Source of the DNA: Acutalibacteraceae bacterium
GTDB lineage: Bacteria > Bacillota > Clostridia > Oscillospirales > Acutalibacteraceae
Direction of reading: 5' to 3'
DNA: 51,180 nucleotides
Assembly (NCBI GenBank): GCA_045576915.1
Contig: JAZNHK010000213.1
Span: 1 to 51,180, forward strand
Shown: positions 3,141 to 25,193 of the stretch, one piece after another
How positions within the stretch are numbered: the stretch's first letter is position 1
How the letters are laid out: every line of letters starts with the position of its first letter
Notes under the pieces: model-generated
Seen by the model: only the letters and a program-made list of their open reading frames with translations
Database searches by the model: none
What the model was told of the DNA's origin: nothing
Made by a program: the position numbers and the translations under genes

Positions 3141-3191
3141 AAATGCACCTCTAAAAAATAAGGATAAATGGTTCATTTTCGTTTATATGCT

Positions 3192-7362: not shown

Positions 7363-7364
7363 AA

Positions 7365-8537
7365 TTAAAAATAACTCACTTTAATTCGTTTACCCATTTG
7401 CTTCAAGCATTTGGAAAGTTCTTCAACAAGATTCATTTTAATATTGAAGTTTATAGGCAAATCAGGGTTTTGATGAGCAGGATTAATTGCTCTGCCTACA
7501 TAGAAGTTTATATCTGTTGCCTCTTCAAAAAGCAATCTGCTTATGAGTGAAGCTCCGTCTTTCTTAAAACTCCAATGCTCGTAGTGCTTATTTTCACCTA
7601 AATAATCCTGAGCATATTCAACAACCTTATTAACAGTGATGACACCTTCTGTTACAAGGTCAACGCCCTCGATTTCTGCAATAGGCGGAACATCACTATG
7701 TTCGAAATTAAGGGTCGGTTTCAATGGTTTTCTCAAAAATTTTGAGGCAATTGTTGAAGTTGTACCGCCACAGATAATGTGTTTGCCCTCTTTCGAGAAG
7801 AAAAGGCTCATCATTCTATCTGCATCATCTCTGTTTGATGGCGGTCCAAAAAGCATATTCATAGGAACTCTTTTGCGAATTTTCACAACACACGCAGTCG
7901 CATCATCCCCAGGTTTATGACCATAAAGCTTATCACACTCATCAATGAGCATTGTTGATAAAGTCTTCGCGGTATAGCCAACCGGAGCAAGAGTTTCAAG
8001 AAAACTTGCAATATCTTCACGCTTCCATCCGAAATTATATGCAGTACCTATACCTGCGTGAGGACAACCATCGCTCATAGCAATAAAAATATCATTTTCC
8101 TGCAACTGAATAACGGATTTAAAAATCTTCTTACCACCAATATTCATTTCAGTTTTAGGATAATCCCAATTTTTATCATTACGAATGATTATTGTATGTG
8201 GATTATCATACTGAATAAGCTCAGCTGTCTGGTTATTCTTTAAATGAATAATGGTAAATGTTGAATAAGCCACACCACGAACAGAACAAACGGGTAAGGT
8301 CGCAGCAATTGTTTCAACACATTCTTCCAATGAAAGACCTTCCGCAAGCATTGTGGAAATGATTTTTGATGTAAGTGTTGAAAGTATACTCGCTTTAACA
8401 CCACTACCAAGACCATCAGAAAGTACCACAACTGTTGACTCGTCATCCGGCTCAACAATATCAATATGGTCTCCGCAAAGCTGTTCACCGTAGTGATTTA
8501 TACTTTTGTAACCGATATCTGCACATAAATCATTCAT
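7365..8537 (-). CDS. SpoIIE/PP2C-type serine phosphatase with an uncharacterised C-terminal domain of about 160 aa
   Basis: The PP2C core is CGDHIDIV...VVVLSDGLGSGVKASILS...MSDGCPHAG. The start overlaps the upstream hydS stop by 8 nt. Confidence 0.75.
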   Translation of the reverse strand: MNDLCADIGYKSINHYGEQLCGDHIDIVEPDDESTVVVLSDGLGSGVKASILSTLTSKIISTMLAEGLSLEECVETIAATLPVCSVRGVAYSTFTIIHLKNNQTAELIQYDNPHTIIIRNDKNWDYPKTEMNIGGKKIFKSVIQLQENDIFIAMSDGCPHAGIGTAYNFGWKREDIASFLETLAPVGYTAKTLSTMLIDECDKLYGHKPGDDATACVVKIRKRVPMNMLFGPPSNRDDADRMMSLFFSKEGKHIICGGTTSTIASKFLRKPLKPTLNFEHSDVPPIAEIEGVDLVTEGVITVNKVVEYAQDYLGENKHYEHWSFKKDGASLISRLLFEEATDINFYVGRAINPAHQNPDLPINFNIKMNLVEELSKCLKQMGKRIKVSYF

Positions 8538-10209
8538 CAGAAATCGACTCCTTTAATTTTGCAAGTGCGATTTTTGTTTCTGCTGCAGTTTCACCTAAAA
8601 GTGATGCAATTTCCTGAACAATTCGCATCTGCTTGTCAACAACTTTGTCGGCAACCTCAATGGTTTGTCGGCTTATATTTTCTTTTCTTTCTTTTTGCTC
8701 TTCCTCTGCGGTAACATCTCTCATAATACCGATAAGAAGATGAGAATCTCTGTCATAAACAACAGTCTGCTCAACAAACCTCTTATATTCTGCAAGATAA
8801 ACTCGCTGGTCGCTTACGCCCCTACCTGTTTTAAGAACATTTTCGAAAACTGCAGGGTCAAGAATACGAATAACATTATCACCCAGAATATCGGAAGCAT
8901 AGCGAATATTCATAATTTCTCTTGCAGCTCTGTTAATTTGCTGAACCTCAAGATTCTCATTAAGAACAATAAGACCATTTGGTGAACTGTTTACAATAGT
9001 GTCAGAAAAGCTTTCTGCTTTATCCTTAAGGAAAGGAAGGCACATTGAAATCTCCGCCTTACCCTGACAAATAGCCGCCGCTTTTTCACGGCAGGTATTA
9101 TAGCCACAAGAACCACAGTTAAGCTCCTGTGAAGGCTTAAATTTACCCATCTGACGAAGAACAGCGTTAATTTCTGTTTCTGTGGGTTGTGGATATCTTT
9201 GCTCAATATATTCAAACTGCTTTTTTAATTCCGAAGTTTTAGGCTGAGAAACCTCGAAATCCTTTTTACCTGCATAGTTTACGATAGTAATATAATCCTT
9301 GATCGTTTCCGTGTGGTGATATTTTTCCATAACAGGACCACCCATACAGCTACCAACGCAAGCTGACATTTCAATAAAGCATTTATGAACTTTTCCGCTT
9401 TCAATGTCTTTAAGAGCAGCTACACAGTTTTCCACACCATCAAGGGCAATATATGTATATCCTGGTGCATCCTGTGCCATTGTTTTAAGCACACCACCTG
9501 TTGTGGGGAAGAAACGTGCACGACTGAAATCATCATTATCTTTTTCAGGTTCAAACTCAATATTTTCACTTTTAAGCCATGTTGTAAGCTCTTCGAATGT
9601 AAGAACTGCATCAACTATACCCTGATAATGCTCTGCTTCATCCTTCTTTGAAACACAAGGTCCGACAAAAACTGTTTTTGCATCGGGATGGCGTTTCTTT
9701 ATATCCATACAATGAGCCTGCATAGGTGAAAGAACATCTGCAAGATATTCAAGTGATGCAGGGAAATATTTCTGTATAAGTAAGTTTATAGAATGACAGC
9801 AAGAGGTTATGATTATATCTCTGTCATCCTCTTCGAGCATTCTCTCATATTCATTTTTTACAATTGTTGCACCGATAGCTGTTTCTTCAACATCATAAAA
9901 GCCCAGCTTTTTAAGGGCTTTTCTCATTGAATTTATACCAACGCCATCGTAATTTGCAACGAATGAAGGAGCAAGACTTACTATAACCTTTTCTCTTGCC
10001 TGTAAAAATACTTTTACTTTTTCGGTTTCATCAACAATCTCTTTTGCATTTTGAGGGCACACAACAAAGCACTGACCGCAAAGAATACATTCGTTGCCAA
10101 TAATATGTGCCTGGTTTCCCGAAAAACGGATAGCTTTAACGGGACAATGACGAATACATTTATAACAGTTTTTGCAATTGGATTTTTTTAATGTTAAGCA
10201 ATTGGGCAT
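8530..10209 (-). CDS. hydS: Sensory group-C-type [FeFe]-hydrogenase with a C-terminal PAS domain (HydS/HfsB-like)
   Basis: Two CxxCxxCxxxCP motifs are present. The H-domain motifs are TSCCHS, GPCVSKKDE and EMSACVGSCMGG. An extra Cx2Cx4Cx16C motif (CGSCGYNTC, 16 residues, C) precedes a PAS-like C-terminal region. Confidence 0.8.
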   Translation of the reverse strand: MPNCLTLKKSNCKNCYKCIRHCPVKAIRFSGNQAHIIGNECILCGQCFVVCPQNAKEIVDETEKVKVFLQAREKVIVSLAPSFVANYDGVGINSMRKALKKLGFYDVEETAIGATIVKNEYERMLEEDDRDIIITSCCHSINLLIQKYFPASLEYLADVLSPMQAHCMDIKKRHPDAKTVFVGPCVSKKDEAEHYQGIVDAVLTFEELTTWLKSENIEFEPEKDNDDFSRARFFPTTGGVLKTMAQDAPGYTYIALDGVENCVAALKDIESGKVHKCFIEMSACVGSCMGGPVMEKYHHTETIKDYITIVNYAGKKDFEVSQPKTSELKKQFEYIEQRYPQPTETEINAVLRQMGKFKPSQELNCGSCGYNTCREKAAAICQGKAEISMCLPFLKDKAESFSDTIVNSSPNGLIVLNENLEVQQINRAAREIMNIRYASDILGDNVIRILDPAVFENVLKTGRGVSDQRVYLAEYKRFVEQTVVYDRDSHLLIGIMRDVTAEEEQKERKENISRQTIEVADKVVDKQMRIVQEIASLLGETAAETKIALAKLKESISDE

Positions 10210-15514: not shown

Positions 15515-16120
15515 ATGAAACTGATTTTATCATCTTATGATTTTCTTAAAGTAGAATCTAAAAACCTTATAACTGAACACCTGACGAAGCCGTTAAACGA
15601 ATGTCGCATACTTTTTATCCCCGATGAAACTGCTACTTCAGAAATTATAGAAAGTGATTTCTATTACAAGAATTTGTGCGAATACGGCTTCAAACGTGAA
15701 AATATTTTTATTTTCAATCACACAAAAGCCCAAAAATTCACTAATCTACCAATAGATGTTATATACGTAGGTGGCGGAAACACTTTCGGTATAATTGATA
15801 AAATCCGTAAATGCAATTTTGATACTGCCATAATAAACTATGTAAAAGCAGGAGTTGTATACATAGGTGTCAGTGCAGGTGCACATATTGTTACACAAAA
15901 CATTGAACACATTCTGGAATATGATGATAACAACGTAAATTTAACGGATTTCAGCGGTCTTGGACTTTATGACGGTATCATTGTTTGCCACTACACCTAC
16001 CACCGTAAAGACCATCTGGATAGACTGATAGCAGAAAAAAAGTACAAAGTAGACTATTTAACAGATTCTGATTGTATTGTTCACACAGATAAAGAAACAT
16101 TCACTTACCAATGGTGGTAA
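15515..16120 (+). CDS. Peptidase S51 (dipeptidase E-like)
   Basis: Motifs YVGGGNTF and GVSAGAHIV are present in a 201-aa protein. A GGAGGA RBS precedes the start. Confidence 0.65.
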   Translation: MKLILSSYDFLKVESKNLITEHLTKPLNECRILFIPDETATSEIIESDFYYKNLCEYGFKRENIFIFNHTKAQKFTNLPIDVIYVGGGNTFGIIDKIRKCNFDTAIINYVKAGVVYIGVSAGAHIVTQNIEHILEYDDNNVNLTDFSGLGLYDGIIVCHYTYHRKDHLDRLIAEKKYKVDYLTDSDCIVHTDKETFTYQWW

Positions 16121-16139
16121 GTGAATGTTTTTTGCTATA

Positions 16140-17360
16140 TTACTCGCCTTCAACCAACTCAAAGGTATCCTGAGCAATCATAAGTTCTTCGTTTGTTGGA
16201 ATTACGAACATTTTAATTTTTGACTCAGATGTAGAAAACTCTATTTCTTCGCCTCGGGTATTGTTTTTAGCTTCATCTATTTCCACGCCCATAAAAGCGA
16301 GTTTTTCTGCAACAGCTTTCCTGTATTTGGGGTTATTTTCACCTATACCACCTGTGAAAACAATTGCATCAACGCCACCCATTGCAGCTGCAAAGGAGCC
16401 TACATATTTCGTAAGCTGATGGCAAAGCATTTTTTCTACAAGAATTGCTTTTTCATTACCATCTTTAATAAGTTTTTCTATCGCAATGTTGTCACTGGTT
16501 TTTTGGGTAATACCCAACATTCCTGACTTTTTGTTTAATACCTCATCAACTTGCTTAACTGTAAGCTTCTCTTTTTCCATAAGCACACCCACAATTGCAG
16601 GGTCAATGCTACCGCAACGAGTACCCATCATAATACCCTCAAGAGGTGTAAGACCCATTGTTGTATCAAAGCATTTACCATCAACAATGGCAGAAATAGA
16701 GGAACCGTTACCAAGATGGCAGGTTATAATTTTACTATGCTCAGGGTCACCTAAAAGCTCATTGCAACGCCTTGAAACAAATCTGTGAGAGGTTCCGTGA
16801 AAACCATATTTACGAATACCATAGTTTTCATAATATTCATAAGGCAATGCATACATATATGCAAAATCCGGCATTGTCTGATGAAATGCAGTATCAAAAA
16901 CAGCTACCTGAGGAACACCGGGTAAAAGCTCTTCAAAAGCCTTAATGCCTGTTAAGTTTGCAGGATTGTGCAATGGTCCTAAAGGAATACATTCTTCAAT
17001 AGCTTTTTTTACATCCTCATTAACAACAACAGATTCGCTGAATTTTTCACCAGCGTGAAGAACTCTATGTCCCACAGCGTGTATTTCAGAAAGCTCTTTT
17101 ACAACCCCAACAACAGGATGCTTAAGAATTTCAACAAGATCTTCTATAGCTTCATAATGAGTCATTTTTTCTTTAAGCTGCTCTTTATCGAGTACTTTTA
17201 TAAACTCATCATCGGAACCCGGTATCTTGTGGGTAACTGTTGCAACTGAGGTTGATTCAAGCTGAGAAAATATACCCGTACACAAAACATTACCACTGGG
17301 CATAGCAAAAACAGTATATTTAAGTGATGAACTACCACAATTTATTACTAAAACTTTCAT
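16140..17360 (-). CDS. ackA: Acetate kinase
   Basis: MKVLVINCGSSSLKY is the canonical N-terminus, and GFHGTSH and GGIGEN motifs are present. The start is trimmed to the Met that has an AAGGTG RBS. Confidence 0.93.
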   Translation of the reverse strand: MKVLVINCGSSSLKYTVFAMPSGNVLCTGIFSQLESTSVATVTHKIPGSDDEFIKVLDKEQLKEKMTHYEAIEDLVEILKHPVVGVVKELSEIHAVGHRVLHAGEKFSESVVVNEDVKKAIEECIPLGPLHNPANLTGIKAFEELLPGVPQVAVFDTAFHQTMPDFAYMYALPYEYYENYGIRKYGFHGTSHRFVSRRCNELLGDPEHSKIITCHLGNGSSISAIVDGKCFDTTMGLTPLEGIMMGTRCGSIDPAIVGVLMEKEKLTVKQVDEVLNKKSGMLGITQKTSDNIAIEKLIKDGNEKAILVEKMLCHQLTKYVGSFAAAMGGVDAIVFTGGIGENNPKYRKAVAEKLAFMGVEIDEAKNNTRGEEIEFSTSESKIKMFVIPTNEELMIAQDTFELVEGE

Positions 17361-17473
17361 ACTAAACACCTTCAAAATAAATTTATATAAATACTTTAAA
17401 TCCTCTTTAGATAAGTCGCCCATTCAAACCTCGTCTCCTCATAATATTTTAACACATAGAGCTTCAAAGTCAA

Positions 17474-19135
17474 TCAAAACACTGAACAATCCTCAAGATC
17501 AAATTCATAGGAATTCTTTTTACACCATTTCTTAAAGGCGGCATAAATGAATTCATTTGAATCGATACTTCGGTTATCCTTTAAATACGCCTGAATTATA
17601 TTATTGCTTTCGGTATCAACTTGTATAGCTGCAACATACTTCCCGAATTTCAAAACACCAACTACCGGAGTATCAAACTCTTCAGCACCTAAGCAGTTAT
17701 CAAGCTCTTGTCCTGCTATCAGATAGTCATTCATTGATTTCAACGGAGAAAAAACAAGACCATCCACCCGTTGCACAGGAATCCCTTCTGCTAAATCACG
17801 CTCGGGTATATTCAAAAAATACTGTGAAACGCCATTACCGAAACGCATACATCTGCAAGATGTCAGTTTAAGCCTTTCCTTTTCATCCTCTCTTTTTTTG
17901 TCACTCAACGATGCGTAAATCAAGGCATACTCGTTAACCGACTCGGGATAATCCGCCAGCATATTTTTAAAAGGAACATACAAATCCTCTTTGCAAATAT
18001 CCTCATATAATCTTGAAATTACAGGGAAATCGTGTAAAAAGCGTAAATTTGAAAACACGTGCTTATTATCCAAAAAAGCTCCAAAAAAATTAGGCTCTTT
18101 TCCCGTACATTCCCACAATTTTTCAAGTTCATCAACATAAAAGAACAATGCAGGATTTTTAAACATTTTCTTTCTGATTGATTTCATTTGTGGCAAAGAG
18201 GATTGTTGATAAAGGGATACAATATCATCACTAAAATGCAATTTTAAACTGATATCCTCAAATGATTCATCAATTTCCTTTGTTCCTCGTCTGTAGGGAA
18301 TATAAATATAAAACGAGGTATCCTCGTAACCTATGTATGCTGTTGCCAAAGAGAATGTATATATATCAAGCTGATATTCTCTGAAGGGTAAAGGCTTACC
18401 CCAGAATTCAGCAAAAAGCCTCTTCAGTTTCCTTTTTATCAAGACATTTTTAGAAAGTACATCAATAAGAGGACTTTCAAAATCACAGGCATCCACACCC
18501 ATAGTGATATCTCTTGACATCAAGGTGTTACCTGATAATGTTTTAAGCTCCAATACAGTAGTGCCTTTATTGAAATTGAAGGTTATATATTCACAAAGGG
18601 GAAATTCGTTAATGTTTAAATACTCTTCATTCCAGTTAACATGCACAATATCCCCTATACTCTTCAAAGGATATGAAACGATTACCTCTTCATCTGTTTT
18701 AGTAAATGTCACCAAAACTTTTGATTCATTGCATTTGGATTCAGCACCGCAATGCATACATTTAAAGGTATCTGATTCGGTAATAGGTTTATATAATGGT
18801 ATCACTTTATTACGGGTTTCGAAAAATGACATTGCCTCTTCCAACCACAAACTGGCATCATTTTTTGAAAATAATTTCTTGGGTTCATAATCTCCACGTA
18901 TAAAGTGCATATAAGCAGGGGTCTGCTGTCCACAATGAGGGCACACGACAAAATGTGACGTAAGCTTAACAACATCTTCATTTTTTAAAATTTCAATGCT
19001 TGTATATTTGAATTGATTATTTCCGGAAAGATTTGTGTTAAATGCTGTATAAACATCAACAACTGTAACTTCTTCACAAATTTTGCAGCCTCTGGGTACA
19101 GCAACTACTTCACAATTATTCTCCAACACACTCAC
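17474..19135 (-). CDS. Zn-ribbon protein with a PcfJ-like C-terminal domain. It is the last gene of the accessory operon.
   Basis: Three CxxC pairs are present: CKIC, CPHC and CMHC. The C-terminal stretch FSPLKSMNDYLIAGQELDNCLGAEEFDTPVVGVLKFGKYVAAIQVDTESNNIIQAYLKDN follows the PcfJ-domain pattern as I recall it. The gene starts 5 nt after the preceding gene. Confidence 0.45.
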   Translation of the reverse strand: MSVLENNCEVVAVPRGCKICEEVTVVDVYTAFNTNLSGNNQFKYTSIEILKNEDVVKLTSHFVVCPHCGQQTPAYMHFIRGDYEPKKLFSKNDASLWLEEAMSFFETRNKVIPLYKPITESDTFKCMHCGAESKCNESKVLVTFTKTDEEVIVSYPLKSIGDIVHVNWNEEYLNINEFPLCEYITFNFNKGTTVLELKTLSGNTLMSRDITMGVDACDFESPLIDVLSKNVLIKRKLKRLFAEFWGKPLPFREYQLDIYTFSLATAYIGYEDTSFYIYIPYRRGTKEIDESFEDISLKLHFSDDIVSLYQQSSLPQMKSIRKKMFKNPALFFYVDELEKLWECTGKEPNFFGAFLDNKHVFSNLRFLHDFPVISRLYEDICKEDLYVPFKNMLADYPESVNEYALIYASLSDKKREDEKERLKLTSCRCMRFGNGVSQYFLNIPERDLAEGIPVQRVDGLVFSPLKSMNDYLIAGQELDNCLGAEEFDTPVVGVLKFGKYVAAIQVDTESNNIIQAYLKDNRSIDSNEFIYAAFKKWCKKNSYEFDLEDCSVF

Positions 19136-19140
19136 TCCTT

Positions 19141-19830
19141 TTATTCAATAACAACAACATTGTTATAAAGTATTCTGATGTTATCACTTTCGTTTGCATA
19201 TTTATCCAAATGAAAATGACCTGCAAACCACTTCTTATACTCTACAGTAGTTCTTACATCATCAAGAAAATCTGTAAAATGCTTGTCAGGTTTGTCATCA
19301 ACATCGAAACCGAGCATTCTGATTACGGATGAGGGTAAGGTGTGGGTCATAATATAATCCACTTTGTTACCCACCTTCTCAAGGCTTGCTCTACCCTCAT
19401 TTATTTCATCCTGATTGGGAATCTCTTCATCCCAATAGGAAACATTACGAACTTTGAAACCACGGTCCACACTAAACGCTCCGCCGAAGGTAAAAAAGCT
19501 CTTTCCCTCTATATCAAAAACTTGTCCACGCATAAGGTGAATAATATTTGGGCGAATGCGATGAACCTTCCCTCCGTTCCACTCTTCAACGGGAAATTTT
19601 TTGGTGTCATTCAAAAGAGGAAATCGTTCATGGTTTCCGTCCAGAAACAGAATTGTGTACTTTCTTTCAGTAAGCTTTTCAAAATTGTCGTGGGCAAACT
19701 GAGAATCTGAAAAAAGGAACCCCCAGTCCCCACAAATTATCACGTAATCTTTTTCAGTCGGCTCAAACATCTCTTCAATATACTCGAATTTATCCAAGCC
19801 CCCGTGGGTATCTCCCGTAATAAAAAACAT
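19141..19830 (-). CDS. Calcineurin-like metallophosphoesterase
   Basis: All five motifs are present: ITGDTHG, CGDWGF, DGNHE, MTHT and GHFH. The start is set at the Met preceded by AAAGGAG, because the track ORF starts 7 codons earlier. Confidence 0.8.
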   Translation of the reverse strand: MFFITGDTHGGLDKFEYIEEMFEPTEKDYVIICGDWGFLFSDSQFAHDNFEKLTERKYTILFLDGNHERFPLLNDTKKFPVEEWNGGKVHRIRPNIIHLMRGQVFDIEGKSFFTFGGAFSVDRGFKVRNVSYWDEEIPNQDEINEGRASLEKVGNKVDYIMTHTLPSSVIRMLGFDVDDKPDKHFTDFLDDVRTTVEYKKWFAGHFHLDKYANESDNIRILYNNVVVIE

Positions 19831-19841
19831 AACGGCTCCTT

Positions 19842-21581
19842 TCAGGCACAAAAGCCTTTAATCTTTTTACTTTCAGTTACTTCATCATCTGAATACATTT
19901 CTTTGGCATAAAGCTTTACAAATTCTTCATTCACAACAATAGGTAACTGTTCGCCTTGTTCAATCTGAATATTGACCTCACCTAACAAATGCTCAATCTG
20001 CTGACCCATATTTCTTGCTCCGTAATCCTTTGTGGTTTTAGCAATTGCTAATAAACCATCCTTTGAAAAAACAACCTCGTCATCTGTAAAATTGTATTTT
20101 TTCATATACTTGGGAGCAATAAATTGTTCACCTACTTCAGCTTTTTTATTGAAATCGTATGCAGGTATAGTAAAAATATTACCACGGAACCTGTCTACGA
20201 TATGTTCACTTACACCACTCATATCGTTACAGGTAACAACGAATGTAAAACCATCTACCGGGCAATCATATTCACTGAATCGGTCCTGCAAAACTCTTCT
20301 GTCATCAAAGATACTGTCAAAAGCACTATGGGTATCACCTTCCTTAGTGTTATGTGCAATTTTATCAAGCTCATCCAACAGCACAAGCCCTCTGCCTCTT
20401 GCACGACGGATTTCCTCCAGAACAGTACCATGACGTGCACCATCATAAATTCTGTCGGCTCCCATAAGCTCAAGAGGACTTTTGTTTTTACAAGGAATTG
20501 ATATATATATCAGATGCAGACACTCTGCAATTCCTTTGGCTAAACTGCTTTTACCGGTACCGGGAGGGCCTAAAAGGACAAACACCGTTCCGGTAGTCCT
20601 GTTACGTGCTAACAAACGAATCTGACGGGCAATACCTTCAATGAGCTCATCATCTCCGTGGTGATATTTGCGAAGGATTGTGACGCACTCTTCGTACGAT
20701 GGTGGTTCAACATATCCATCAACATCTTCAAGACAGGTATGCAAAATATCAGAAAGAACCATACCTGCATCCTTACTGGACTTGCTACCTCCACGCATCT
20801 CTTTAATAAGAGATTTACATTTCACCCTTAATTCAGGTGAAAGAGAATTTTCGCAAAGGCTGAACATTGTCTGGAGAGCTTTGCTGTCAGTTAATACTTC
20901 CTTCGTGTTTGAAAATAATAATTCTTCTTCATTCTCTTCTACGATTTCTTTCTGAGCATTTTTCAGAATAAAATCCTTAATATCGGGTGAGCAATCAGCA
21001 AAATTTGAAATATTCGAAGCTCGGGAATCGAGATCCTCAAAAATAAAAAAGTATTTATATGTTTCAGGATGTACCAGACACAAAACGCTACCGGTAAGCT
21101 GCTGGGTATGTCTGTTTCTTTTGTATTCAAAAATACACTCGTAATCACCGGGTTCAACAACATCAAGTAAAGTAGAAGAATCGTTTATATCAGCATTAAA
21201 AATTCCTGCTGACTCGGCAAAAACATTTACCTTTGTACCTTTAAGATTTTTGACATCCTGAATATAAAGCGTTGTTGATGCAATATGTCTTCTGTATCTT
21301 TCATAAACCTCTTCAGGACTATAGCCGAAATCAGGGTCATCATCCAAATCAATTTCAAGAGTATCATCACTCACACTTGAATATGTATTAGAAGCAACAC
21401 GCTCAGTCACAACGTCGGTTTTATTTCCCACAATATTTTCATCCTTCTCAGAGTGCTTCGTATCAGCGTTTTTAAGCTCATCCCTTTTTTTATATTCAAT
21501 AAAAATCTCACCAACTGAAACAATATAGCTGACAAGCTTTGTAAAAGTACCAATCTTACGTTTTTTCTTTGAAACTCCCAT
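19842..21581 (-). CDS. Lon-type AAA+ ATPase without a protease domain, carrying a unique N-terminal region of about 300 aa
   Basis: Walker A is LLGPPGTGKSSLAKGIAE and Walker B is VLLDELDK. The segment is colinear with the LonA ATPase and lid (HHGDDELIEGI...FVVTCN...IVDRF...YGARNMGQQIE). The protein ends at residue 579 with no Ser-Lys peptidase domain. Confidence 0.7.
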   Translation of the reverse strand: MGVSKKKRKIGTFTKLVSYIVSVGEIFIEYKKRDELKNADTKHSEKDENIVGNKTDVVTERVASNTYSSVSDDTLEIDLDDDPDFGYSPEEVYERYRRHIASTTLYIQDVKNLKGTKVNVFAESAGIFNADINDSSTLLDVVEPGDYECIFEYKRNRHTQQLTGSVLCLVHPETYKYFFIFEDLDSRASNISNFADCSPDIKDFILKNAQKEIVEENEEELLFSNTKEVLTDSKALQTMFSLCENSLSPELRVKCKSLIKEMRGGSKSSKDAGMVLSDILHTCLEDVDGYVEPPSYEECVTILRKYHHGDDELIEGIARQIRLLARNRTTGTVFVLLGPPGTGKSSLAKGIAECLHLIYISIPCKNKSPLELMGADRIYDGARHGTVLEEIRRARGRGLVLLDELDKIAHNTKEGDTHSAFDSIFDDRRVLQDRFSEYDCPVDGFTFVVTCNDMSGVSEHIVDRFRGNIFTIPAYDFNKKAEVGEQFIAPKYMKKYNFTDDEVVFSKDGLLAIAKTTKDYGARNMGQQIEHLLGEVNIQIEQGEQLPIVVNEEFVKLYAKEMYSDDEVTESKKIKGFCA

Positions 21582-21605
21582 TATAAAAACCTCCTTTTAA
21601 CTGCT

Positions 21606-22679
21606 TCAAACCGCTTTTTCTTCATTTAAATATTTATCTATCAGTCTGTAATATTCCTTTACAGAGCTTTTTGCGTATTTAGCAGAATTTATCTCCGAAA
21701 CCTGAGTTATATATCCTATTAAATCCTCATCTGCCGAAACATAATTTTTAAAATCATCCTCATAGGCCTGAGAGTTTGAAAAAACAATCATATTCTTGTA
21801 TTTTGCATCTACGCTGTTAAATAATTCGACTTCATTATGCTCGTACGCATGAAAAATTTCGTGGCACAAGGTTTCCAATACATCCTCTGCCAGACTTGAT
21901 TCAATATGTCTGTGATTTATAACCACAGAATGTTCCTTATGGCTGTAATAGCCTAAAACTCCGTCATCCATAACTCCTGCTGACAGGTGTACTTTGTGAG
22001 GAATTCCAAGATAAGCCACTTCAATGTTCCGTATAACCTTCAACACCTCAAGTTTTTCATCTACAGAAAGCTTTTTCCAATCGTCCTCTCTCAGAAGCTT
22101 TACTGTATCAATATTATTTTTAACAGTCCATTGCTCTGCAGATTCGGAATTTGCACCCTCAAGTGCATAATCATCAGACTTTGCAAGTTGCACACCATAG
22201 ATAGAAAACAGAACTGAAACACCAAGAAGCACACAAGCTAAAGCACCTGCAATTGCCCTTATTCCATTAAGAGCAAAGCCCACTCTGTGTCTGACTATTC
22301 TTTTAGCATTTTGCTTGTTTTTGATTTTTTTAAAAACAACAATACAAAAATACAATGCTGACAAAACAACAATTACTGCTACAAAAGCACCTATGTATTT
22401 ATTATAGGCTGATGAATATGTAATTAAAAAATATGGAATATAAGCCAATGCAACATTAAAAACGACATTATATTCGTTTCTTTTTCTAGCCGGTGTTATT
22501 AAAGAAAATATAAACCAGATTACCTGATTACAACCAAAATACATCAGTTTTGATTTCATTACACTGGCACCGGGAATATGAACAAACAAGAAAACATAAT
22601 AAAGAGCACAAACCACAAAGGCTACATTTAAATGCCGCAAAAAATATTCGATATATGGCATACATTTTTTCTTTTTCAT
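21606..22679 (-). CDS. Polytopic membrane protein with a C-terminal HExxH (zincin-like) domain
   Basis: About five hydrophobic helices occupy residues 15-165. A soluble domain follows, containing GVLGYYSHKEHSVVINHRHI...TLCHEIFHAYEH. A GGAGG RBS precedes the start. Confidence 0.55.
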   Translation of the reverse strand: MKKKKCMPYIEYFLRHLNVAFVVCALYYVFLFVHIPGASVMKSKLMYFGCNQVIWFIFSLITPARKRNEYNVVFNVALAYIPYFLITYSSAYNKYIGAFVAVIVVLSALYFCIVVFKKIKNKQNAKRIVRHRVGFALNGIRAIAGALACVLLGVSVLFSIYGVQLAKSDDYALEGANSESAEQWTVKNNIDTVKLLREDDWKKLSVDEKLEVLKVIRNIEVAYLGIPHKVHLSAGVMDDGVLGYYSHKEHSVVINHRHIESSLAEDVLETLCHEIFHAYEHNEVELFNSVDAKYKNMIVFSNSQAYEDDFKNYVSADEDLIGYITQVSEINSAKYAKSSVKEYYRLIDKYLNEEKAV

Positions 22680-22726
22680 TTATTACGCCTCCTTATAATT
22701 ACCTAAAACGTAATGGTTACATCAGT

Positions 22727-23125
22727 TTATTCCTCTTCAGGATAAATCTCCAAAACCTCGTAACCCATATACTCACAATCTTCATCAGGTTCAACAAGCG
22801 ATTCTTTTGTAAAGTAAAAAAATTTAAGCTTCATATATACAGTTGCATTTATATTTTCATCACCGTACTTTTCAATAAAGCTGTCCAGAACAGCGCCGCT
22901 TAAATACAAATCAAAAAAAACGACTTTATCATTTTCATTGTCTATTACTTTGGCTGTCGCTCTTACTGTATCACCCGGTTTCATTTTAATTACCTTGGCC
23001 TCATCAATCCAAACTCTGATTAAACATCCCTTAATATGAACAGGTACTCTGTCAAGCTCTTTTCCGTTATATACTGCTGGTCTTAACTCCAACTTTTTAA
23101 CTTCCTTATAAAATGTTTTTTCCAT
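22727..23125 (-). CDS. Hypothetical 132-aa protein, the first gene of the accessory operon
   Basis: The start is chosen at MEKTFYKEV because a GGAGGA motif sits 8 nt upstream. I recognise no motif in the protein. Confidence 0.5.
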   Translation of the reverse strand: MEKTFYKEVKKLELRPAVYNGKELDRVPVHIKGCLIRVWIDEAKVIKMKPGDTVRATAKVIDNENDKVVFFDLYLSGAVLDSFIEKYGDENINATVYMKLKFFYFTKESLVEPDEDCEYMGYEVLEIYPEEE

Positions 23126-23283
23126 TTTTCTTTCCTCCATTTTAAATTTAAAAATGTACAAAACAGTTTGTTGATTCGTAGAAATAAAGTTTGTTTTTAG
23201 TCGAAAAAACAAAAACTCACATATCCCTGATTTTAAAAATAATACACGAAACTTCCAATTCTCAATTACTTACCACAAAAAAT

Positions 23284-23304
23284 TTATCACACTTGTTGTG
23301 ATAA
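23284..23304. promoter_or_regulatory. Perfect palindrome TTATCACA-N5-TGTGATAA upstream of the accessory operon, a candidate operator
   Basis: Read directly from the sequence. A third half-site-like TTTGTGAT follows immediately. The palindrome lies about 160 nt upstream of the 22727-23125 gene start. Confidence 0.5.
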
Positions 23305-23349
23305 TTTGTGATCGCTTTCAAAAAAACATTTTTCTTTATTGTTTTTCTT

Positions 23350-23619
23350 TTATAAGTAATCAAGATGAATACCGGCTTCAACTATACGTTTTAACATTTC
23401 GAACTTATTTTTAGCATCTTCTTTTTCTATGTTATTCAGTTCGTATAAATGAGGAATTTCTTCTTTTTTATTGTACTTAGCGAAATTAACCTCTTCCCCC
23501 GCTTCATAAACAATAACAATAAAATCATCGCAAGAATTGCTGATTTCAATGATCTTGATATATTCAGCGATATCACCATATCTGTTTACACATCTGAATA
23601 AGTTTGTAGGTTTATCCAT
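23350..23619 (-). CDS. Hypothetical 89-aa protein
   Basis: The start at MDKPTNLF is preceded by GGAGGTG. I recognise no motif in the protein. Confidence 0.45.
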   Translation of the reverse strand: MDKPTNLFRCVNRYGDIAEYIKIIEISNSCDDFIVIVYEAGEEVNFAKYNKKEEIPHLYELNNIEKEDAKNKFEMLKRIVEAGIHLDYL

Positions 23620-23765
23620 AAGTTCACCTCCCCTATAAATAATTATAAGAATGGCTTTTTCACCTCTCAATAACATTAAATATCAAAAAACTTTTCTTTT
23701 TGTGAAAAAGACTTGATTTTTAATAGATTATGTTATATTCTCAAAAAAGCAAAGGAGGTCGTATT

Positions 23766-25193
23766 ATGGGTAAATCTACAAAAAGCCAAAAAGGTTTATG
23801 TATATGGATGTGGCAATATTTTGTAAAGTTGGGAGTATCCCGCAGTTTTACAAAAACTATGCAACTTCTTTTCAATGTAGGAAGCGAAGAAACCGACAGA
23901 GGTTATCACACCCGTTTCAAACAAGACAGACTTCCTCAACACCTTTTTGATCCAAAACACGATTTGCTTTCATATTTTGAAAACACGTTATATTATAAAT
24001 TGAAAGAAAAAAATGGCGGTGACTTCGGTGAGCTGTACGCTATTTTATATAACAGTCTTCAATTATTAACAGGGGATGATTGTGACTACACTATCCCCGA
24101 CAGATTGAAAAAATCCAGTTCTATAGCACTGGATAGTTTAATTGATTATGTAAAAAGAAGAAACAGCTCAATTGACATTAATAGCAGTATTTTCTTCGCA
24201 CAACATTTATATAGTGTAATTTACTTTTTCGGTAAAGGCTTCTGTCCACCATCGAAGTCTGATGAAATATTCCAATTGGCTGATTGCAGAACAGAGCTGA
24301 TGGAACGCGTTATTCTGCCTTTTGGCTTATCCACAAAGCCCGGTATGTATCAGGTTATCAAGCTTGCCGAAGAGGGCAATCCCTTGGCATTGTATGAATG
24401 CAGCGGATTATATTATTATGGAATAATCTGCCCTGAGCCCAATTATCAGAAATCCTTTGATTATTGCCTTAGGGCAATAAAGGCAACTCCCCCTGCACCC
24501 ATAGCATTCTGGGATTATGGATATATGCTCTACAACTACAAAAGGCCGGGCACAGAGTTAGAAAATGCGTTTATTGCCCAATTGGAGTATATGGATCCTA
24601 TTGACAGAATCCGCTTAGCAATAAGCTATGAGCATAAGGCTGCTGCTTGCGGAATTGTTGCAGCATTCAATGTTCTTGGTAATATGGCAAATGACCCGAA
24701 TGTTCCTATGGAAATAAAAAAGGAATTCAACCTTACAGATCCCGAAAAGCTCTGGAAAAAAGCAGCTGACAACAATTACGTATTCTCTCTTGGCAACCTG
24801 AGTGAATTATATGAGCAACGTGCTTTAAAGGAAGAGAACCCTGAAAAGAAAAAAGAGCTTATGGATTTATCCTTTGATTACCTGATAAAGGCAGCAGACC
24901 AATATGGTGCATGGGCTAACAACACTCTGGGGTTGAAGTATTATAAAAAGAATCAATTTCCCGAAGCATATAATCACTTCAGCAGAGCAAAGACCGTCGA
25001 TTATATCTGGGGTTACTACAATCTTCTTGAAAAATACCATTTACCCTCTTATCTGACAGGAAATAGCCCATCATATCTGGATAAAGAAATCAAAATTGAA
25101 GATTTAATAAAGGTTTGCATAAACGCAAAAAACCAAGAAGTTGCCGAAAGAACAAAAGATTTATTAAAGAACCATCCTGAATTACTTAAATAA
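23766..25193 (+). CDS. Sel1-like/TPR repeat protein
   Basis: Repeats of the form AEEGNPLALYECSGLYYYG, AAACGIVAAFNVLGNM and AADQYGAWANNTLGLKYY are present. The start is set at the Met after AAAGGAGG. Confidence 0.6.
   Translation: MGKSTKSQKGLCIWMWQYFVKLGVSRSFTKTMQLLFNVGSEETDRGYHTRFKQDRLPQHLFDPKHDLLSYFENTLYYKLKEKNGGDFGELYAILYNSLQLLTGDDCDYTIPDRLKKSSSIALDSLIDYVKRRNSSIDINSSIFFAQHLYSVIYFFGKGFCPPSKSDEIFQLADCRTELMERVILPFGLSTKPGMYQVIKLAEEGNPLALYECSGLYYYGIICPEPNYQKSFDYCLRAIKATPPAPIAFWDYGYMLYNYKRPGTELENAFIAQLEYMDPIDRIRLAISYEHKAAACGIVAAFNVLGNMANDPNVPMEIKKEFNLTDPEKLWKKAADNNYVFSLGNLSELYEQRALKEENPEKKKELMDLSFDYLIKAADQYGAWANNTLGLKYYKKNQFPEAYNHFSRAKTVDYIWGYYNLLEKYHLPSYLTGNSPSYLDKEIKIEDLIKVCINAKNQEVAERTKDLLKNHPELLK

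What the first reader, a model, noticed from the sequence alone, without database searches (positions are those of the whole stretch)
17474..25193. Compact accessory operon with a divergent Sel1-repeat gene: best candidate for an undescribed defence or stress system
Five co-oriented minus-strand genes are packed with gaps of 47, 24, 11 and 5 nt. In order they encode:
- a small protein (22727-23125);
- a polytopic membrane protein with an HExxH domain (21606-22679);
- a Lon-type AAA+ ATPase lacking a protease domain (19842-21581);
- a metallophosphoesterase (19141-19830);
- a Zn-ribbon/PcfJ-like protein (17474-19135).

A palindromic operator-like site, an additional 89-aa gene and a divergently transcribed Sel1-repeat protein lie upstream. 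The block is wedged between housekeeping genes, ackA on one side and an inositol monophosphatase on the other. It contains no biosynthetic or transport logic.

Pairing an ATPase with a separately encoded protease-like protein, a phosphoesterase/nuclease-fold enzyme and a PcfJ-like domain known from conjugative elements is reminiscent of ATPase-plus-effector antiphage systems. Examples are ATPase-protease pairs such as IetAS and the Lon-like BrxL of BREX. This gene set does not match any named system I can recall: there is no PglX or PglZ, no methylase, no helicase and no HNH nuclease. No integrase is present, and I see no intrinsic terminator before ackA (17361-17473), so read-through into ackA is possible.
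Basis: partly seen in the sequence, partly recalled or inferred. Interest (0 to 1): 0.85.

Follow-up and report, generated by a model that had tools for sequence, protein, structure and literature searches.

The report
Conserved PcfJ-like five-gene cassette beside ackA
A tightly packed five-gene cassette recurs as a unit in several uncultured gut Clostridia, matches no catalogued defence system, and has distant relatives on mobile elements and in defence islands, so it is a credible but unproven new accessory system.

Summary
Five co-oriented minus-strand genes lie at 17474-23125 with gaps of 47, 24, 11 and 5 nt. They encode a small protein, a polytopic HExxH membrane protein, a Lon-type AAA+ ATPase without a protease domain, a metallophosphoesterase with an intact active site, and a Zn-ribbon/PcfJ-like protein.

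The set is not a one-off. Four or five of the genes recur together in at least six diverged metagenomic lineages.
- In five of these lineages the set sits next to ackA.
- It is absent from the 80 nearest ackA loci among GTDB species representatives.

The PcfJ-like protein belongs to an unnamed family of at least 461 clusters. Its distant members sit in mobilisable transposons and defence islands. There they again lie beside a ring ATPase (Lon-, FtsH- or CbbX-type, or a T4SS coupling protein), a phosphoesterase, a membrane zincin, or Sel1 proteins.

PADLOC recognises only weak, partial AAA+ similarity.

My best reading, at about 0.4 confidence, is a mobile-element-derived conflict cassette now fixed in the chromosome. 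Defence itself is not shown. Housekeeping envelope or proteostasis roles and conjugation-relic roles remain open. Interest is moderate to high. I rate the novelty as a new variant of a known kind.

The parts
23730..25193 (+). p7: 487-aa protein with a Sel1/TPR-like C-terminal region, transcribed divergently from the operon
   Evidence: ORF. Pfam TPR_1 E 0.0018 and Sel1 E 0.0064, both below threshold. Residues 156-481 are 29% identical (E 7e-35) to a 708-aa protein lying divergently upstream of the distant cassette in L128. Non-homologous small Sel1 proteins accompany the cassettes in L006, L260, L001 and L090.
23642..23670 (-). Promoter-like site (TTGAGA-17-TATAAT, 11 of 12 matches) in the 110-nt divergent intergenic region, upstream of p6
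   Evidence: Consensus scan only. A GGAGGTG Shine-Dalgarno sequence precedes the p6 ATG.
23350..23619 (-). p6: 89-aa ORF of unknown function, possibly the first gene of the transcription unit
   Evidence: ORF. No Pfam, PADLOC or NCBIfam hit. No homologue in any related locus. Membership of the cassette is therefore unsupported.
23281..23307 (.). Palindrome AATTTATCACA-N5-TGTGATAATTT between p6 and p1, just upstream of weak promoter-like sites. Candidate operator.
   Evidence: The core TTATCACA-N5-TGTGATAA is perfect. It is not conserved at the equivalent place in L001, L003 or L260.
22727..23125 (-). p1: 132-aa soluble protein, a conserved family with no recognisable domain
   Evidence: Homologues of 29-42% identity occupy the cassette in L001, L003, L089 and L260. 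The start at 23125 is supported by the alignment.
21606..22679 (-). p2: polytopic membrane protein (about 5 TM, N-terminus inside) with a C-terminal zincin-like domain (H273-E274-xx-H277), predicted to be extracytoplasmic
   Evidence: HExxH and about 45 other columns are invariant in 4 homologues. Hydropathy scan. SprT-like E 0.002 (18.4 bits against a 25.6-bit cut-off) and phrog_6445 E 6e-5. Topology is inferred from the positive-inside rule.
19842..21581 (-). p3: 579-aa Lon-type AAA+ ATPase without a protease domain. It has a disordered acidic N-terminus, a family-specific beta/helical N-domain (about 97-326) and an AAA+ module (332-560).
   Evidence: TIGR00763 E 9e-29 at residues 324-551. 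PDB Lon proteins E 2e-21. Foldseek top hits are LONP1/LonA, E 4e-21. Walker A G338-K344, Walker B D403/E404, N452 and R464 are invariant. AF2 pLDDT 71.
19141..19830 (-). p4: 229-aa calcineurin-like metallophosphoesterase with a complete set of metal ligands
   Evidence: PF00149 E 4e-11 and phrog_1649 E 3e-37. D7, H9, D35, N66, H67, H163, H205 and H207 are invariant in 6 homologues. No sequence relative among solved structures.
17474..19135 (-). p5: 553-aa protein with an N-terminal beta-rich Zn-ribbon domain (C63, C66, C124, C127), a helical middle and a C-terminal PcfJ-like alpha/beta domain (N478-C479-L480, Q513, N519). It is the signature gene of the cassette.
   Evidence: The family has 461 clusters at E<=1e-3, nearly all full length. 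PF14284 is hit in 16 of 31 members, best E 2e-5, with the window protein at E 0.2. AF2 pLDDT 78. Foldseek BFVD top hits are phage PcfJ-like proteins, E 3e-10 and 3e-6. There is no significant PDB match.
17446..17473 (-). Promoter-like site (TTGACT-16-TAAAAT with an extended TG) in the 113-nt p5-ackA spacer. No terminator is detected there.
   Evidence: consensus scan only.
16140..17360 (-). ackA (acetate kinase), the conserved downstream neighbour of the cassette
   Evidence: PF00871 E 1e-142. ackA lies directly after p5 homologues in L001, L003, L089 and L260.
16095..16130 (-). Strong hairpin (16 pairs) after ackA, the first terminator-like site downstream of the cassette

Best explanation
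The block is a real, conserved five-gene cassette (p1-p5) whose signature gene is a full-length PcfJ-like Zn-ribbon protein. I read it as a module descended from a mobile genetic element. In this uncultured Oscillospirales-like lineage it has become a stable chromosomal fixture upstream of ackA. Its most likely role is in genetic conflict: host defence against, or exclusion of, incoming phage or conjugative DNA.

Proposed working, all inferred:
1. A membrane-embedded zincin detects or processes something at the envelope. This is p2, whose HExxH domain faces outwards. In other lineages an M50-type intramembrane protease takes its place. The Sel1/TPR protein may help.
2. The event is coupled to a cytoplasmic hexameric Lon-type AAA+ unfoldase or translocase (p3).
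3. The output is delivered by the catalytically intact metallophosphoesterase (p4) together with the PcfJ-like protein (p5). p5 would supply target recognition, probably of nucleic acid, through its Zn ribbon.

Shown: the gene set, the domains, intact catalytic motifs, co-occurrence across lineages, modular replacement of components, mobile-element and defence-island contexts of distant family members, and the lack of a match to catalogued systems.

Inferred: the direction of benefit (host versus element), the substrate, and the order of events.
For: **1. Co-occurrence of the gene set**
- p1-p5 recur together in L001/L002, and p1, p3, p4 and p5 in L003-5.
- In L089 the order is p3-p2-p1-p5-ackA-p4.
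- In L260, p2 is divergent and is followed by p1-p3-x-p4-p5-ackA.
- p2-p5 recur in L006.

**2. Distant p5 homologues (about 30% identity) sit in mobile or defence contexts**
- L090: serine recombinase, TnpW, TnpV, ParB and RepA_N, with the order AAA-p5-Sel1.
- L094: recombinase, relaxase, NikA, an FtsH-like AAA-M41 protein, WYL, PDC-S26 (E 2e-45), MPE-p5 and TnpV.
- L092: dGTPase (E 4e-46) directly upstream, PDC-S02 (E 1e-96), NERD, an AriA/PtuA-like ATPase and a methylase.
- L097: MoxR, DUF2201, a 1141-aa IetA-like AAA-M41 protein (E 2e-39), an M50-like protein, two MPEs, Cas6 and TnpV.
- L128: an orphan T4SS coupling protein (E 7.5e-42) in the ATPase slot, plus an M50-like protein, MPE, p5 and a p7 homologue.

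**3. Non-homologous displacement within fixed slots**
- Membrane zincin slot: p2-type or M50-type.
- Ring ATPase slot: Lon-, FtsH- or CbbX-type, or a T4CP.
- This pattern is typical of conflict systems.

**4. Uneven divergence**
- Between L001 and L003, ackA is 91% identical and p4 is 88%.
- Over the same distance p5, p3 and p1 are only 51-53%, and p2 has been swapped for the M50-type module.

**5. Patchy distribution**
- The 80 nearest GTDB ackA loci have no p1-p7 homologue.

**6. No catalogue match**
- PADLOC finds no model for p1, p2, p4 or p5.

**7. Intact catalytic motifs**
- The ATPase, phosphoesterase and HExxH motifs are all conserved.
Against: - There is no experimental or direct computational evidence of defence.
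- The cassette is syntenic with ackA across lineages whose ackA proteins are only 48-55% identical. It shows no GC anomaly, integrase or flanking repeats in the window. Mobile defence loci do not usually behave this way; a physiological operon would.
- Canonical PcfJ-like proteins are encoded by conjugative plasmids and phages themselves (and the Pfam family name), so the ancestral role may serve the element.
- No recognisable toxin or nuclease effector is present beyond an unclassified phosphoesterase.
- p4's wider family is common in phage contigs without p5.
- Context evidence rests on about 12 independent loci, chosen by what the look-up tools returned.
Confidence: 0.4

Rival explanations
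1. Lineage-specific housekeeping operon. The membrane zincin or site-2-type protease, the Lon-type unfoldase and a phosphatase form an envelope-stress, regulated-proteolysis or sporulation-type signalling pathway. It is co-expressed with ackA and has no role in genetic conflict.
For: - The position directly upstream of, and co-oriented with, ackA is conserved in five lineages, including very deep ones.
- No terminator lies before ackA.
- GC content is normal and no mobility genes are present in the window.
- p4 and ackA diverge in step.
- An extracytoplasmic zincin or M50 protease paired with a cytoplasmic AAA+ protein resembles regulated intramembrane proteolysis cascades (established knowledge).
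- In L001 the upstream neighbours are a PBP, FtsW/RodA and a PP2C phosphatase.
Against: - The block is absent from the 80 closest GTDB ackA loci.
- Components are swapped between lineages with 91% identical ackA.
- The p5 family also sits on mobilisable transposons and in defence islands without ackA.
- The cassette contains no sigma or anti-sigma factor or other transcription factor.
- p5's only relatives are PcfJ-like proteins of plasmids and phages.
Confidence: 0.25
2. Domesticated or decaying remnant of a conjugative or mobilisable element module that serves the element. It would handle DNA processing, transfer, establishment or anti-defence, in line with pcfJ lying in the transfer region of pCF10. 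It would not serve host defence.
For: - p5 is PcfJ-like.
- In L128 the ATPase slot holds a T4SS coupling protein.
- In L094 p5 lies within 8 kb of a relaxase and NikA, and it is flanked by TnpV, TnpW and a serine recombinase in L090 and L094.
- p2's SprT-like zincin recalls the metalloprotease domain of ArdC anti-restriction proteins (my own knowledge; not tested here).
Against: - The window has no relaxase, T4SS, recombinase or oriT-like context.
- All catalytic motifs are intact and the set is maintained across deep divergence, so it is not decaying.
- L128 has no other T4SS genes within 18.8 kb.
- No hit was found in 72,556 plasmids or 50,697 phage genomes.
Confidence: 0.2
3. Prophage remnant. 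The four larger proteins all hit PHROG families, so the block could be leftover phage accessory genes.
For: PHROG hits: phrog_15585 (E 3e-29), phrog_1649 (E 3e-37), phrog_16315 (E 8e-7) and phrog_6445 (E 6e-5). p4-like MPEs are abundant in IMG/VR contigs at 37-48% identity.
Against: - No structural, lysis or integrase genes lie nearby.
- p5 and its subfamilies are absent from INPHARED and IMG/VR.
- Of 80 viral loci anchored on p4-like MPEs, none carries p5, p3, p2 or p1.
- The p3 phage hits cover only the generic Lon AAA+ module.
Confidence: 0.05

Closest known systems
PcfJ-like proteins (Pfam PF14284), named after pcfJ of the Enterococcus faecalis conjugative plasmid pCF10 and also annotated in phages such as Acinetobacter phage vB_AbaM_ME3
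   Same: p5 has the same length class (about 545-550 aa). The C-terminal domain matches the PcfJ profile at family level (16 of 31 members, best E 2e-5). The whole-protein model matches predicted phage PcfJ-like structures (E 3e-10 and 3e-6). Distant family members are carried on mobile elements.
   Different: - The window protein itself is below Pfam's threshold (11.9 bits against 25).
- The subfamily was not found in the plasmid or phage collections searched.
- It comes with a fixed set of partner genes and is chromosomal, next to ackA.
- No function is known for PcfJ. Literature searches found no functional study.
LonA proteases, and protease-bearing Lon-like ATPases of defence systems (BrxL of BREX)
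   Same: p3's AAA+ module and the helical bundle before it are Lon-type. Like BrxL, it sits in an accessory multi-gene cluster.
   Different: - p3 has no S16 protease domain and no LAN domain. It has a family-specific N-domain instead.
- There is no PglZ, PglX, BrxA, BrxB or BrxC gene, and no PADLOC BREX hit.
Two-gene ATPase-plus-effector defence systems: IetAS and Dodola (DolAB)
   Same: An AAA+ ATPase is paired with separately encoded hydrolase-type proteins. Weak PADLOC similarity exists: DolB E 1e-7 and IetA E 9e-6. The AAA partners of distant p5 homologues hit IetA more strongly (E 8e-21 and 2e-39).
   Different: - The hits cover only the P-loop region or part of the ATPase.
- No IetS subtilase or DolA (DUF6414) is present.
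- The cassette has five genes, including a membrane zincin, an MPE and a PcfJ-like protein, none of which is in PADLOC.
FtsH and regulated-intramembrane-proteolysis cascades (site-1 protease, M50 site-2 protease, then a cytoplasmic AAA+ protease)
   Same: A membrane-bound HExxH protein accompanies a hexameric AAA+ ATPase. In relatives the membrane slot holds a true M50-type protein with HExxH inside a TM helix, and the ATPase slot can hold an AAA-M41 fusion.
   Different: - In the window the ATPase and the zincin are separate proteins.
- The zincin domain is predicted to lie outside the cell.
- No anti-sigma/sigma pair is present.
- The extra MPE and PcfJ-like components have no counterpart in these cascades.
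Streptococcal comY/comG late-competence operon with ackA at its 3' end
   Same: ackA lies immediately downstream of, and is co-induced with, an operon for a membrane-associated machine that handles DNA. SMU.1978 follows comG genes in the S. mutans competence regulon (PMC5069739).
   Different: No gene is homologous. This is a parallel in synteny only and says nothing about function.

Membership tests
BREX (BrxL-containing) | PglZ phosphatase, PglX methyltransferase and BrxC ATPase present in the cluster | tested here: not met
   PADLOC scan of all seven proteins gave no Pgl or Brx hit. No methyltransferase lies in the block.
BREX (BrxL-containing) | Lon-like protein carries a C-terminal Lon protease-like domain | tested here: not met
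   p3 ends about 25 residues after the AAA+ module. TIGR00763 aligns only model positions 346-568 of 795. There is no PF05362 hit.
IetAS | IetA ATPase plus adjacent IetS subtilisin-like protease | tested here: not met
   The IetA hit is E 9e-6 over residues 299-357 only. No IetS or S8 protease is present.
Dodola (DolAB) | DolA (DUF6414) next to the ClpB-like DolB | tested here: not met
   DolB scores 29.6 bits, E 1e-7, a partial match. No DolA hit appears in any protein.
LonA protease (endopeptidase La) | N-terminal LAN domain, AAA+ module and S16 Ser-Lys protease domain in one chain | tested here: not met
   Only the AAA+ module matches: 100.5 bits against the 608-bit cut-off. Foldseek aligns about 340-370 columns of the ATPase part.
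AAA+ ATPase (functional) | Walker A, Walker B, sensor-1 and arginine finger conserved | tested here: met
   GPPGTGKS at 338-345, D403/E404, N452 and R464 are invariant in 7 homologues. PF00004 scores 46.5 bits against 21.2.
Calcineurin-like metallophosphoesterase (PF00149) | Profile match above threshold, plus the GDxHG / GD / GNHE / H / GHxH metal-ligand motifs | tested here: met
   44 bits against 21.5. D7, H9, D35, N66, H67, H163, H205 and H207 are invariant. The subfamily (nuclease, protein phosphatase or nucleotide phosphodiesterase) is not resolved, because no solved relative was found.
PcfJ-like (PF14284) | Profile match at or above the gathering score | tested here: inconclusive
   The window p5 scores 11.9 bits, E 0.2, against a 25-bit cut-off. 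16 of 31 family members match at E<=1, best E 2.2e-5.
PcfJ-like (PF14284) | Fold resembles annotated PcfJ-like proteins | tested here: met
   Foldseek against BFVD: four of the top six hits are annotated PcfJ-like phage proteins, E 3e-10 to 2e-3, probability 0.82-1.00. TM-scores are low (0.17-0.27), as expected for a flexible multi-domain model.
SprT-like / zincin metallopeptidase | HExxH motif plus a profile match | tested here: inconclusive
   HEIFH is invariant in 4 homologues. PF10263 scores 18.4 bits against 25.6. NCBIfam SprT is at E 0.0025. PDB Spartan is at E 1.8.
Sel1 repeat proteins (p7) | Sel1/TPR repeats above threshold | tested here: inconclusive
   Sel1 scores 17.5 bits against 30.7, and TPR_1 scores 18.5 against 27.8.
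Conjugative transfer (T4SS/Dtr) module | Relaxase, coupling protein, VirB4-type ATPase or oriT nearby | tested here: not met
   None is present in the window block or its flanks. A coupling protein occurs only in the distant locus L128.
Defence island residency | Known defence genes within the immediate neighbourhood | tested here: not met
   The window flanks are ackA, an S51 peptidase, LysR, AdhE, an inositol monophosphatase, GH95 and a methyltransferase. The feature is met only for the distant p5 homologues in L092, L094 and L097.

The most novel reading that the evidence does not exclude
The cassette is the chromosomal form of a previously undescribed, modular conflict system.
- **Invariant core:** a PcfJ-like Zn-ribbon protein plus a metallophosphoesterase.
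- **Interchangeable accessories:** a polymer-threading ring ATPase (Lon-type, FtsH-type, CbbX-type, or even a T4SS coupling protein) and a membrane zincin (ectodomain type or M50 intramembrane type).
- **Proposed action:** it senses DNA entry at the envelope, from phage injection or conjugation, and destroys or blocks the incoming nucleic acid.

If true, this would give the first function to the PcfJ family, which is found on plasmids and phages.
Probability: 0.3. Interest if true: 0.8.

Novelty: new variant of a known kind. Interest (0 to 1): 0.62.

Why it matters
- **An uncharacterised family gains a testable context.** In the papers I could search, PcfJ-like proteins have no functional study, although they occur on conjugative plasmids, phages and, as shown here, hundreds of protein clusters from gut Clostridia. 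This cassette gives the family a defined set of partner genes with intact catalytic motifs, and hence obvious point mutants.
- **It would add a defence or exclusion system outside current catalogues.** If it is such a system, the "slot" logic is informative: one role is filled by a Lon-, FtsH- or CbbX-type AAA+ protein or a T4SS coupling protein, and another by two unrelated membrane zincins. That shows how such systems are assembled.
- **The alternative is also useful.** If it is a physiological operon tied to ackA, it would be a rare documented case of a mobile-element module being domesticated into core metabolism-linked regulation.

Tried and rejected
- **Exact-sequence look-up of p3:** not on record.
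- **GTDB species-representative scan with p5 patterns from the close family:** 0 loci. This shows only that the close subfamily is absent, because the patterns were narrow.
- **The search for related loci with broader p5 alignments (A2, A3, A4):** No systematic neighbourhood census of the 461-cluster family was therefore possible. Context evidence comes from 12 look-ups and one p4-anchored scan.
- **tblastn of p5 and of the mobile-element-type homologue P0279 against INPHARED phages and PLSDB plasmids:** no match. IMG/VR scans with A1, P0279 and P0311 also found none.
- **p4-anchored scans:** 160 loci were returned but only one (L128) carried p5, so p4's wider family is not a marker of the cassette.
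- **PDB sequence and profile searches for p2, p4 and p5, and Foldseek-PDB for p5:** nothing significant. The best hits were weak GNAT/MprF-C-like local matches at E 0.2, which I do not rely on.
- **The PcfJ-like gene of Acinetobacter phage ME3:** not found in the first 50 kb of the record, so I dropped this line.
- **Literature searches on PcfJ:** no functional study found.
- **Rejected reading, chance juxtaposition:** ruled out by the co-occurrence across lineages.
- **Rejected reading, membership of BREX, IetAS or Dodola:** partner genes are missing and only partial ATPase hits exist.
- **Rejected reading, a cytoplasmic split FtsH-like p2/p3 protease:** the p2 zincin domain is predicted to face outside.

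Full report
**1. Observation check**

The ORF scan reproduces every gene in the finding. On the minus strand these are:
- p6, 23350-23619 (89 aa)
- p1, 22727-23125 (132 aa)
- p2, 21606-22679 (357 aa)
- p3, 19842-21581 (579 aa)
- p4, 19141-19830 (229 aa)
- p5, 17474-19135 (553 aa)
- ackA, 16140-17360

On the plus strand lies p7, 23730-25193 (487 aa).

The gaps between p1, p2, p3, p4 and p5 are 47, 24, 11 and 5 nt. The starts chosen for p1 and p4 agree with alignments of their homologues.

They comprise:
- acetate kinase (PF00871, E 1e-142)
- an inositol monophosphatase (E 3e-68)
- an S51 peptidase, a LysR regulator and AdhE
- a GH95 glycosidase and a methyltransferase

Further points on the block:
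- Its GC content (0.30-0.40) does not stand out from the window average.
- The palindrome is real: 23281-23307, AATTTATCACA-N5-TGTGATAATTT.
- A strong promoter-like site lies at 23670-23642 and a Shine-Dalgarno sequence precedes p6.
- The 113-nt spacer before ackA holds a promoter-like site but no terminator-like hairpin.
- The first strong hairpin follows ackA.

**2. What the proteins are**

- **p3** carries a Lon-type AAA+ module.
  - The matches are TIGR00763 E 9e-29, PDB Lon proteins E 2e-21, and Foldseek top hits LONP1/LonA at E 4e-21.
  - It scores 100 bits against the 608-bit cut-off for a true Lon and ends just after the ATPase, so it has no protease domain.
  - Walker A, Walker B, sensor-1 and the arginine finger are invariant in seven homologues.
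  - The AlphaFold model (pLDDT 71) shows a disordered acidic N-terminus and a family-specific beta and helical domain at residues 97-326.
- **p4** is a calcineurin-like metallophosphoesterase.
  - The matches are PF00149 E 4e-11 and phrog_1649 E 3e-37, and every metal ligand is invariant.
  - It has no sequence relative among solved structures.
  - I therefore cannot say whether it is a nuclease, a protein phosphatase or a nucleotide phosphodiesterase.
- **p2** has a lysine-rich N-terminus, several hydrophobic segments, a strongly basic loop (KKIKNKQNAKRIVRHR) before the last one, and then a 190-residue soluble domain with an invariant HExxH.
  - Similarity to SprT-like zincins is consistent but below threshold.
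  - By the positive-inside rule the zincin domain should face outwards. This is an inference.
- **p5** has two invariant CxxC pairs (C63/C66 and C124/C127), a helical middle and a conserved C-terminal alpha/beta domain containing N478-C479-L480, Q513 and N519.
  - Pfam PcfJ is not significant for the window protein (E 0.2), but it is hit in 16 of 31 family members (best E 2e-5) over the same C-terminal stretch.
  - The AlphaFold model (pLDDT 78) has no significant PDB match.
  - Its best matches among predicted viral structures are phage proteins annotated PcfJ-like and of the same length, at E 3e-10 and 3e-6.
- **p1** is a conserved small soluble protein with no recognisable domain.
- **p7** has only sub-threshold Sel1/TPR hits.
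- **p6** has no hit and no homologue in related loci.

**3. The genes co-occur elsewhere**

p3 has only six close relatives among 5.8 billion proteins. The word-indexed search gave p5 only six. Their contigs show the same gene set:

| Locus | Content and order |
|---|---|
| L001/L002 | p1-p2-p3-p4-p5, a small AbrB/MraZ-like gene, then ackA. Identities to the window: p1 42%, p2 54%, p3 52%, p4 66%, p5 57%, ackA 82% |
| L003-L005 | p1, an M50-like membrane protein plus a 128-aa membrane protein in place of p2, then p3-p4-p5, the small gene, ackA |
| L089 | p3-p2-p1-p5-ackA-p4 |
| L260 | p2 divergent, then p1-p3-(278 aa)-p4-p5-ackA |
| L006 | p2, p3, p4 and a split p5 in another order, without ackA |
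| L096 | M50-like, small membrane protein, p4, p5 |

**4. Distribution**

- The closest ackA among 185,579 GTDB species representatives is only 70% identical. These are Acutalibacteraceae- and Oscillospiraceae-type MAGs.
- The host lineage is therefore not represented among the GTDB species representatives.
- None of the 80 best ackA loci has a homologue of p1-p7 within the flanks held.
- The block is thus not universally conserved at this locus. It is held by a narrow set of uncultured lineages.

**5. The p5 family is large and its distant members are mobile**

A profile of the close family found 461 representatives at 50% clustering with E<=1e-3. Of these, 265 have E<=1e-30, and nearly all are full length at 540-560 aa. 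None carries a name. The contexts of distant members (about 30% identity) are:

| Locus | Context |
|---|---|
| L090 | Large serine recombinase, TnpW, TnpV, ParB, RepA_N; the order AAA(664 aa)-p5-Sel1(229 aa) |
| L094 | Recombinase, TnpW, relaxase, NikA, an FtsH-like AAA-M41 protein (IetA-like, E 8e-21), WYL, PDC-S26 (E 2e-45), a different MPE, p5, TnpV |
| L092 | WYL, DUF2201, AAA(669 aa), PDC-S02 (E 1e-96), a Cas4-like protein, a defence-type dGTPase (E 4e-46) directly upstream of p5; then NERD, an AriA/PtuA-like ATPase, Macro, Fic and a methylase |
| L097 | MoxR, DUF2201, a 1141-aa double-AAA-M41 protein (IetA-like, E 2e-39), an M50-like protein, small membrane proteins, p5, two MPEs, Cas6, IS200, TnpV |
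| L128 | A p7 homologue placed divergently (E 7e-35), an OmpA-like protein, an M50-like protein, a small membrane protein, an orphan T4SS coupling protein (E 7.5e-42), a p4-family MPE, p5 |

Tally across the twelve independent contexts:
- A ring ATPase is present in all eleven that are long enough to judge.
- An MPE is present in ten.
- A membrane HExxH protein is present in nine (five p2-type, four M50-type).
- A Sel1/TPR protein is present in six.

No p5 relative was found in INPHARED phages, PLSDB plasmids or IMG/VR.

**6. Rates and swaps**

- Between L001 and L003, ackA is 91% identical and p4 is 88%.
- Over the same distance p5 is 53%, p3 51% and p1 51%.
- The p2 slot is filled by a non-homologous module.
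- Fast divergence and slot replacement at a fixed site are what one sees in conflict loci. Unconstrained proteins of unknown function can also drift quickly, so this is only suggestive.

**7. The ackA link is unexplained**

- Five of the six loci that carry the Lon-type p3 place ackA directly beside the cassette. In L089 ackA even sits between p5 and p4.
- The ackA proteins of L089 and L260 are only 48-55% identical to each other and to those of the window clade.
- Synteny held over that distance argues for co-inheritance with selection for linkage, or for co-transfer of ackA with the cassette. I cannot tell which.
- A parallel in synteny exists in Streptococcus mutans. There ackA follows the comG/comY competence operon and is induced with it (PMC5069739). 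No gene is homologous, so this is only an analogy.

**8. Most likely working**

I commit to a mobile-element-derived conflict cassette that has become fixed in the chromosome (confidence 0.4). The inferred steps are:
1. A membrane zincin acts at or in the envelope, either as an ectodomain type (p2) or as an intramembrane M50 type.
2. A cytoplasmic hexameric ATPase that threads polymers converts this event into remodelling or translocation of a target.
3. The intact phosphoesterase and the PcfJ-like Zn-ribbon protein form the output, with p5 probably providing nucleic-acid or target recognition.

In one relative a T4SS coupling protein fills the ATPase slot. Other relatives place p5 beside a relaxase. 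Both point to incoming or outgoing DNA as the likely target.

Nothing here shows whether the host or a mobile element benefits.

**9. Rivals**

- **A lineage-specific housekeeping pathway for envelope signalling or proteolysis, co-expressed with ackA (0.25).** The stable synteny, normal GC and lack of mobility genes favour it. The patchy distribution, module swaps and mobile contexts of the family count against it.
- **A relic of a conjugation module that serves the element (0.2).** PcfJ ancestry and the coupling protein in L128 favour it. The intact motifs, deep conservation and absence from plasmid collections count against it.
- **A prophage remnant (0.05).** Only PHROG similarity supports it. 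p4-like MPEs are common in viral contigs, but p5, p3, p2 and p1 never accompany them there.

**10. Comparison with known systems**

- PADLOC 2.0 has no model for p1, p2, p4 or p5. For p3 it gives only partial AAA+ hits: DolB E 1e-7 and IetA E 9e-6.
- The defining partners of BREX, IetAS and Dodola are all absent, so the cassette belongs to none of them.
- It works like the broad class of ATPase-plus-effector accessory systems.
- Its nearest relatives by descent are the uncharacterised PcfJ-like proteins of plasmids and phages.

**11. Verdict**

- The cassette is a new variant of a known kind and a good candidate for experiment.
- Its function is not established.
- Current DefenseFinder and PADLOC releases could not be run here, so a match to a system named after 2023 is not excluded.

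Noticed in passing
window 3-3182 (minus strand): An ORF of more than 1060 aa runs off the window start. It has a signal-peptide-like N-terminus, glycine-rich repeats and a C-terminal dockerin-like motif (DTNGDGTVDVTDYQALV). Its GC content is about 0.5 against about 0.37 for the rest of the window. It has no Pfam hit at E<=1e-5, and the region contains no rRNA or tRNA.
   Followed up: partly
window 5929-10209 (minus strand): Two Fe-S-rich [FeFe]-hydrogenase-like proteins (477 and 559 aa, the second with a PAS-like tail) flank a SpoIIE/PP2C-type phosphatase (7365-8537, PF07228, E 4e-14). The arrangement looks like a sensory-hydrogenase signalling cluster. Only the phosphatase was checked against Pfam.
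   Followed up: partly
window 16140-17360, with L001, L003, L089 and L260: ackA lies directly beside the cassette in five lineages whose ackA proteins are as little as 48-55% identical. In L089 it sits between p5 and p4. The reason for this linkage is unexplained.
   Followed up: partly
L006 1-7313 and L260 1-8955: In these two loci the cassette is extended. It gains a divergent E1-like ThiF protein (PADLOC E1-E2, E 5e-15), a 120-aa Zn-ribbon protein and a 170-aa Sel1 protein. It also gains an XRE-type HTH protein, a 661-aa RelA/SpoT-like protein (HD_4 + TGS) and a small Fic-like protein. TGS-domain fragments homologous to the RelA/SpoT-like protein also lie downstream of ackA in L001.
   Followed up: partly
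L128 8119-9981: An orphan VirD4/TraG-type T4SS coupling protein lies inside a p5 cassette. No other T4SS or relaxase gene occurs within 18.8 kb.
   Followed up: partly
L001 14138-14509 and L003 11863-12252: A 123-129-aa protein with an MraZ/AbrB-like N-terminal motif lies between p5 and ackA in the two sister lineages. It is missing from the window, where only a 113-nt spacer remains.
   Followed up: no
proteins P0009-P0075: A large family of about 494-aa protease-less Lon-like AAA ATPases occurs in Lachnospiraceae (Sellimonas, Enterocloster). It is 27% identical to p3 over the ATPase only. Its genomic context was not examined.
   Followed up: no
L259 3186-10392: A truncated or split p3 homologue is followed by a 1090-aa SNF2-type helicase (DrmD-like, E 1e-17), a 379-aa protein and a DUF2201 protein, without p5. 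DUF2201 proteins also lie near p5 homologues in L092 and L097.
   Followed up: no
whole window (host identity): The best ackA match among GTDB species representatives is 70% identical, to MAGs labelled Bacteroidaceae that are probably mislabelled Clostridia. The host therefore appears to belong to a lineage with no GTDB species representative.
   Followed up: partly
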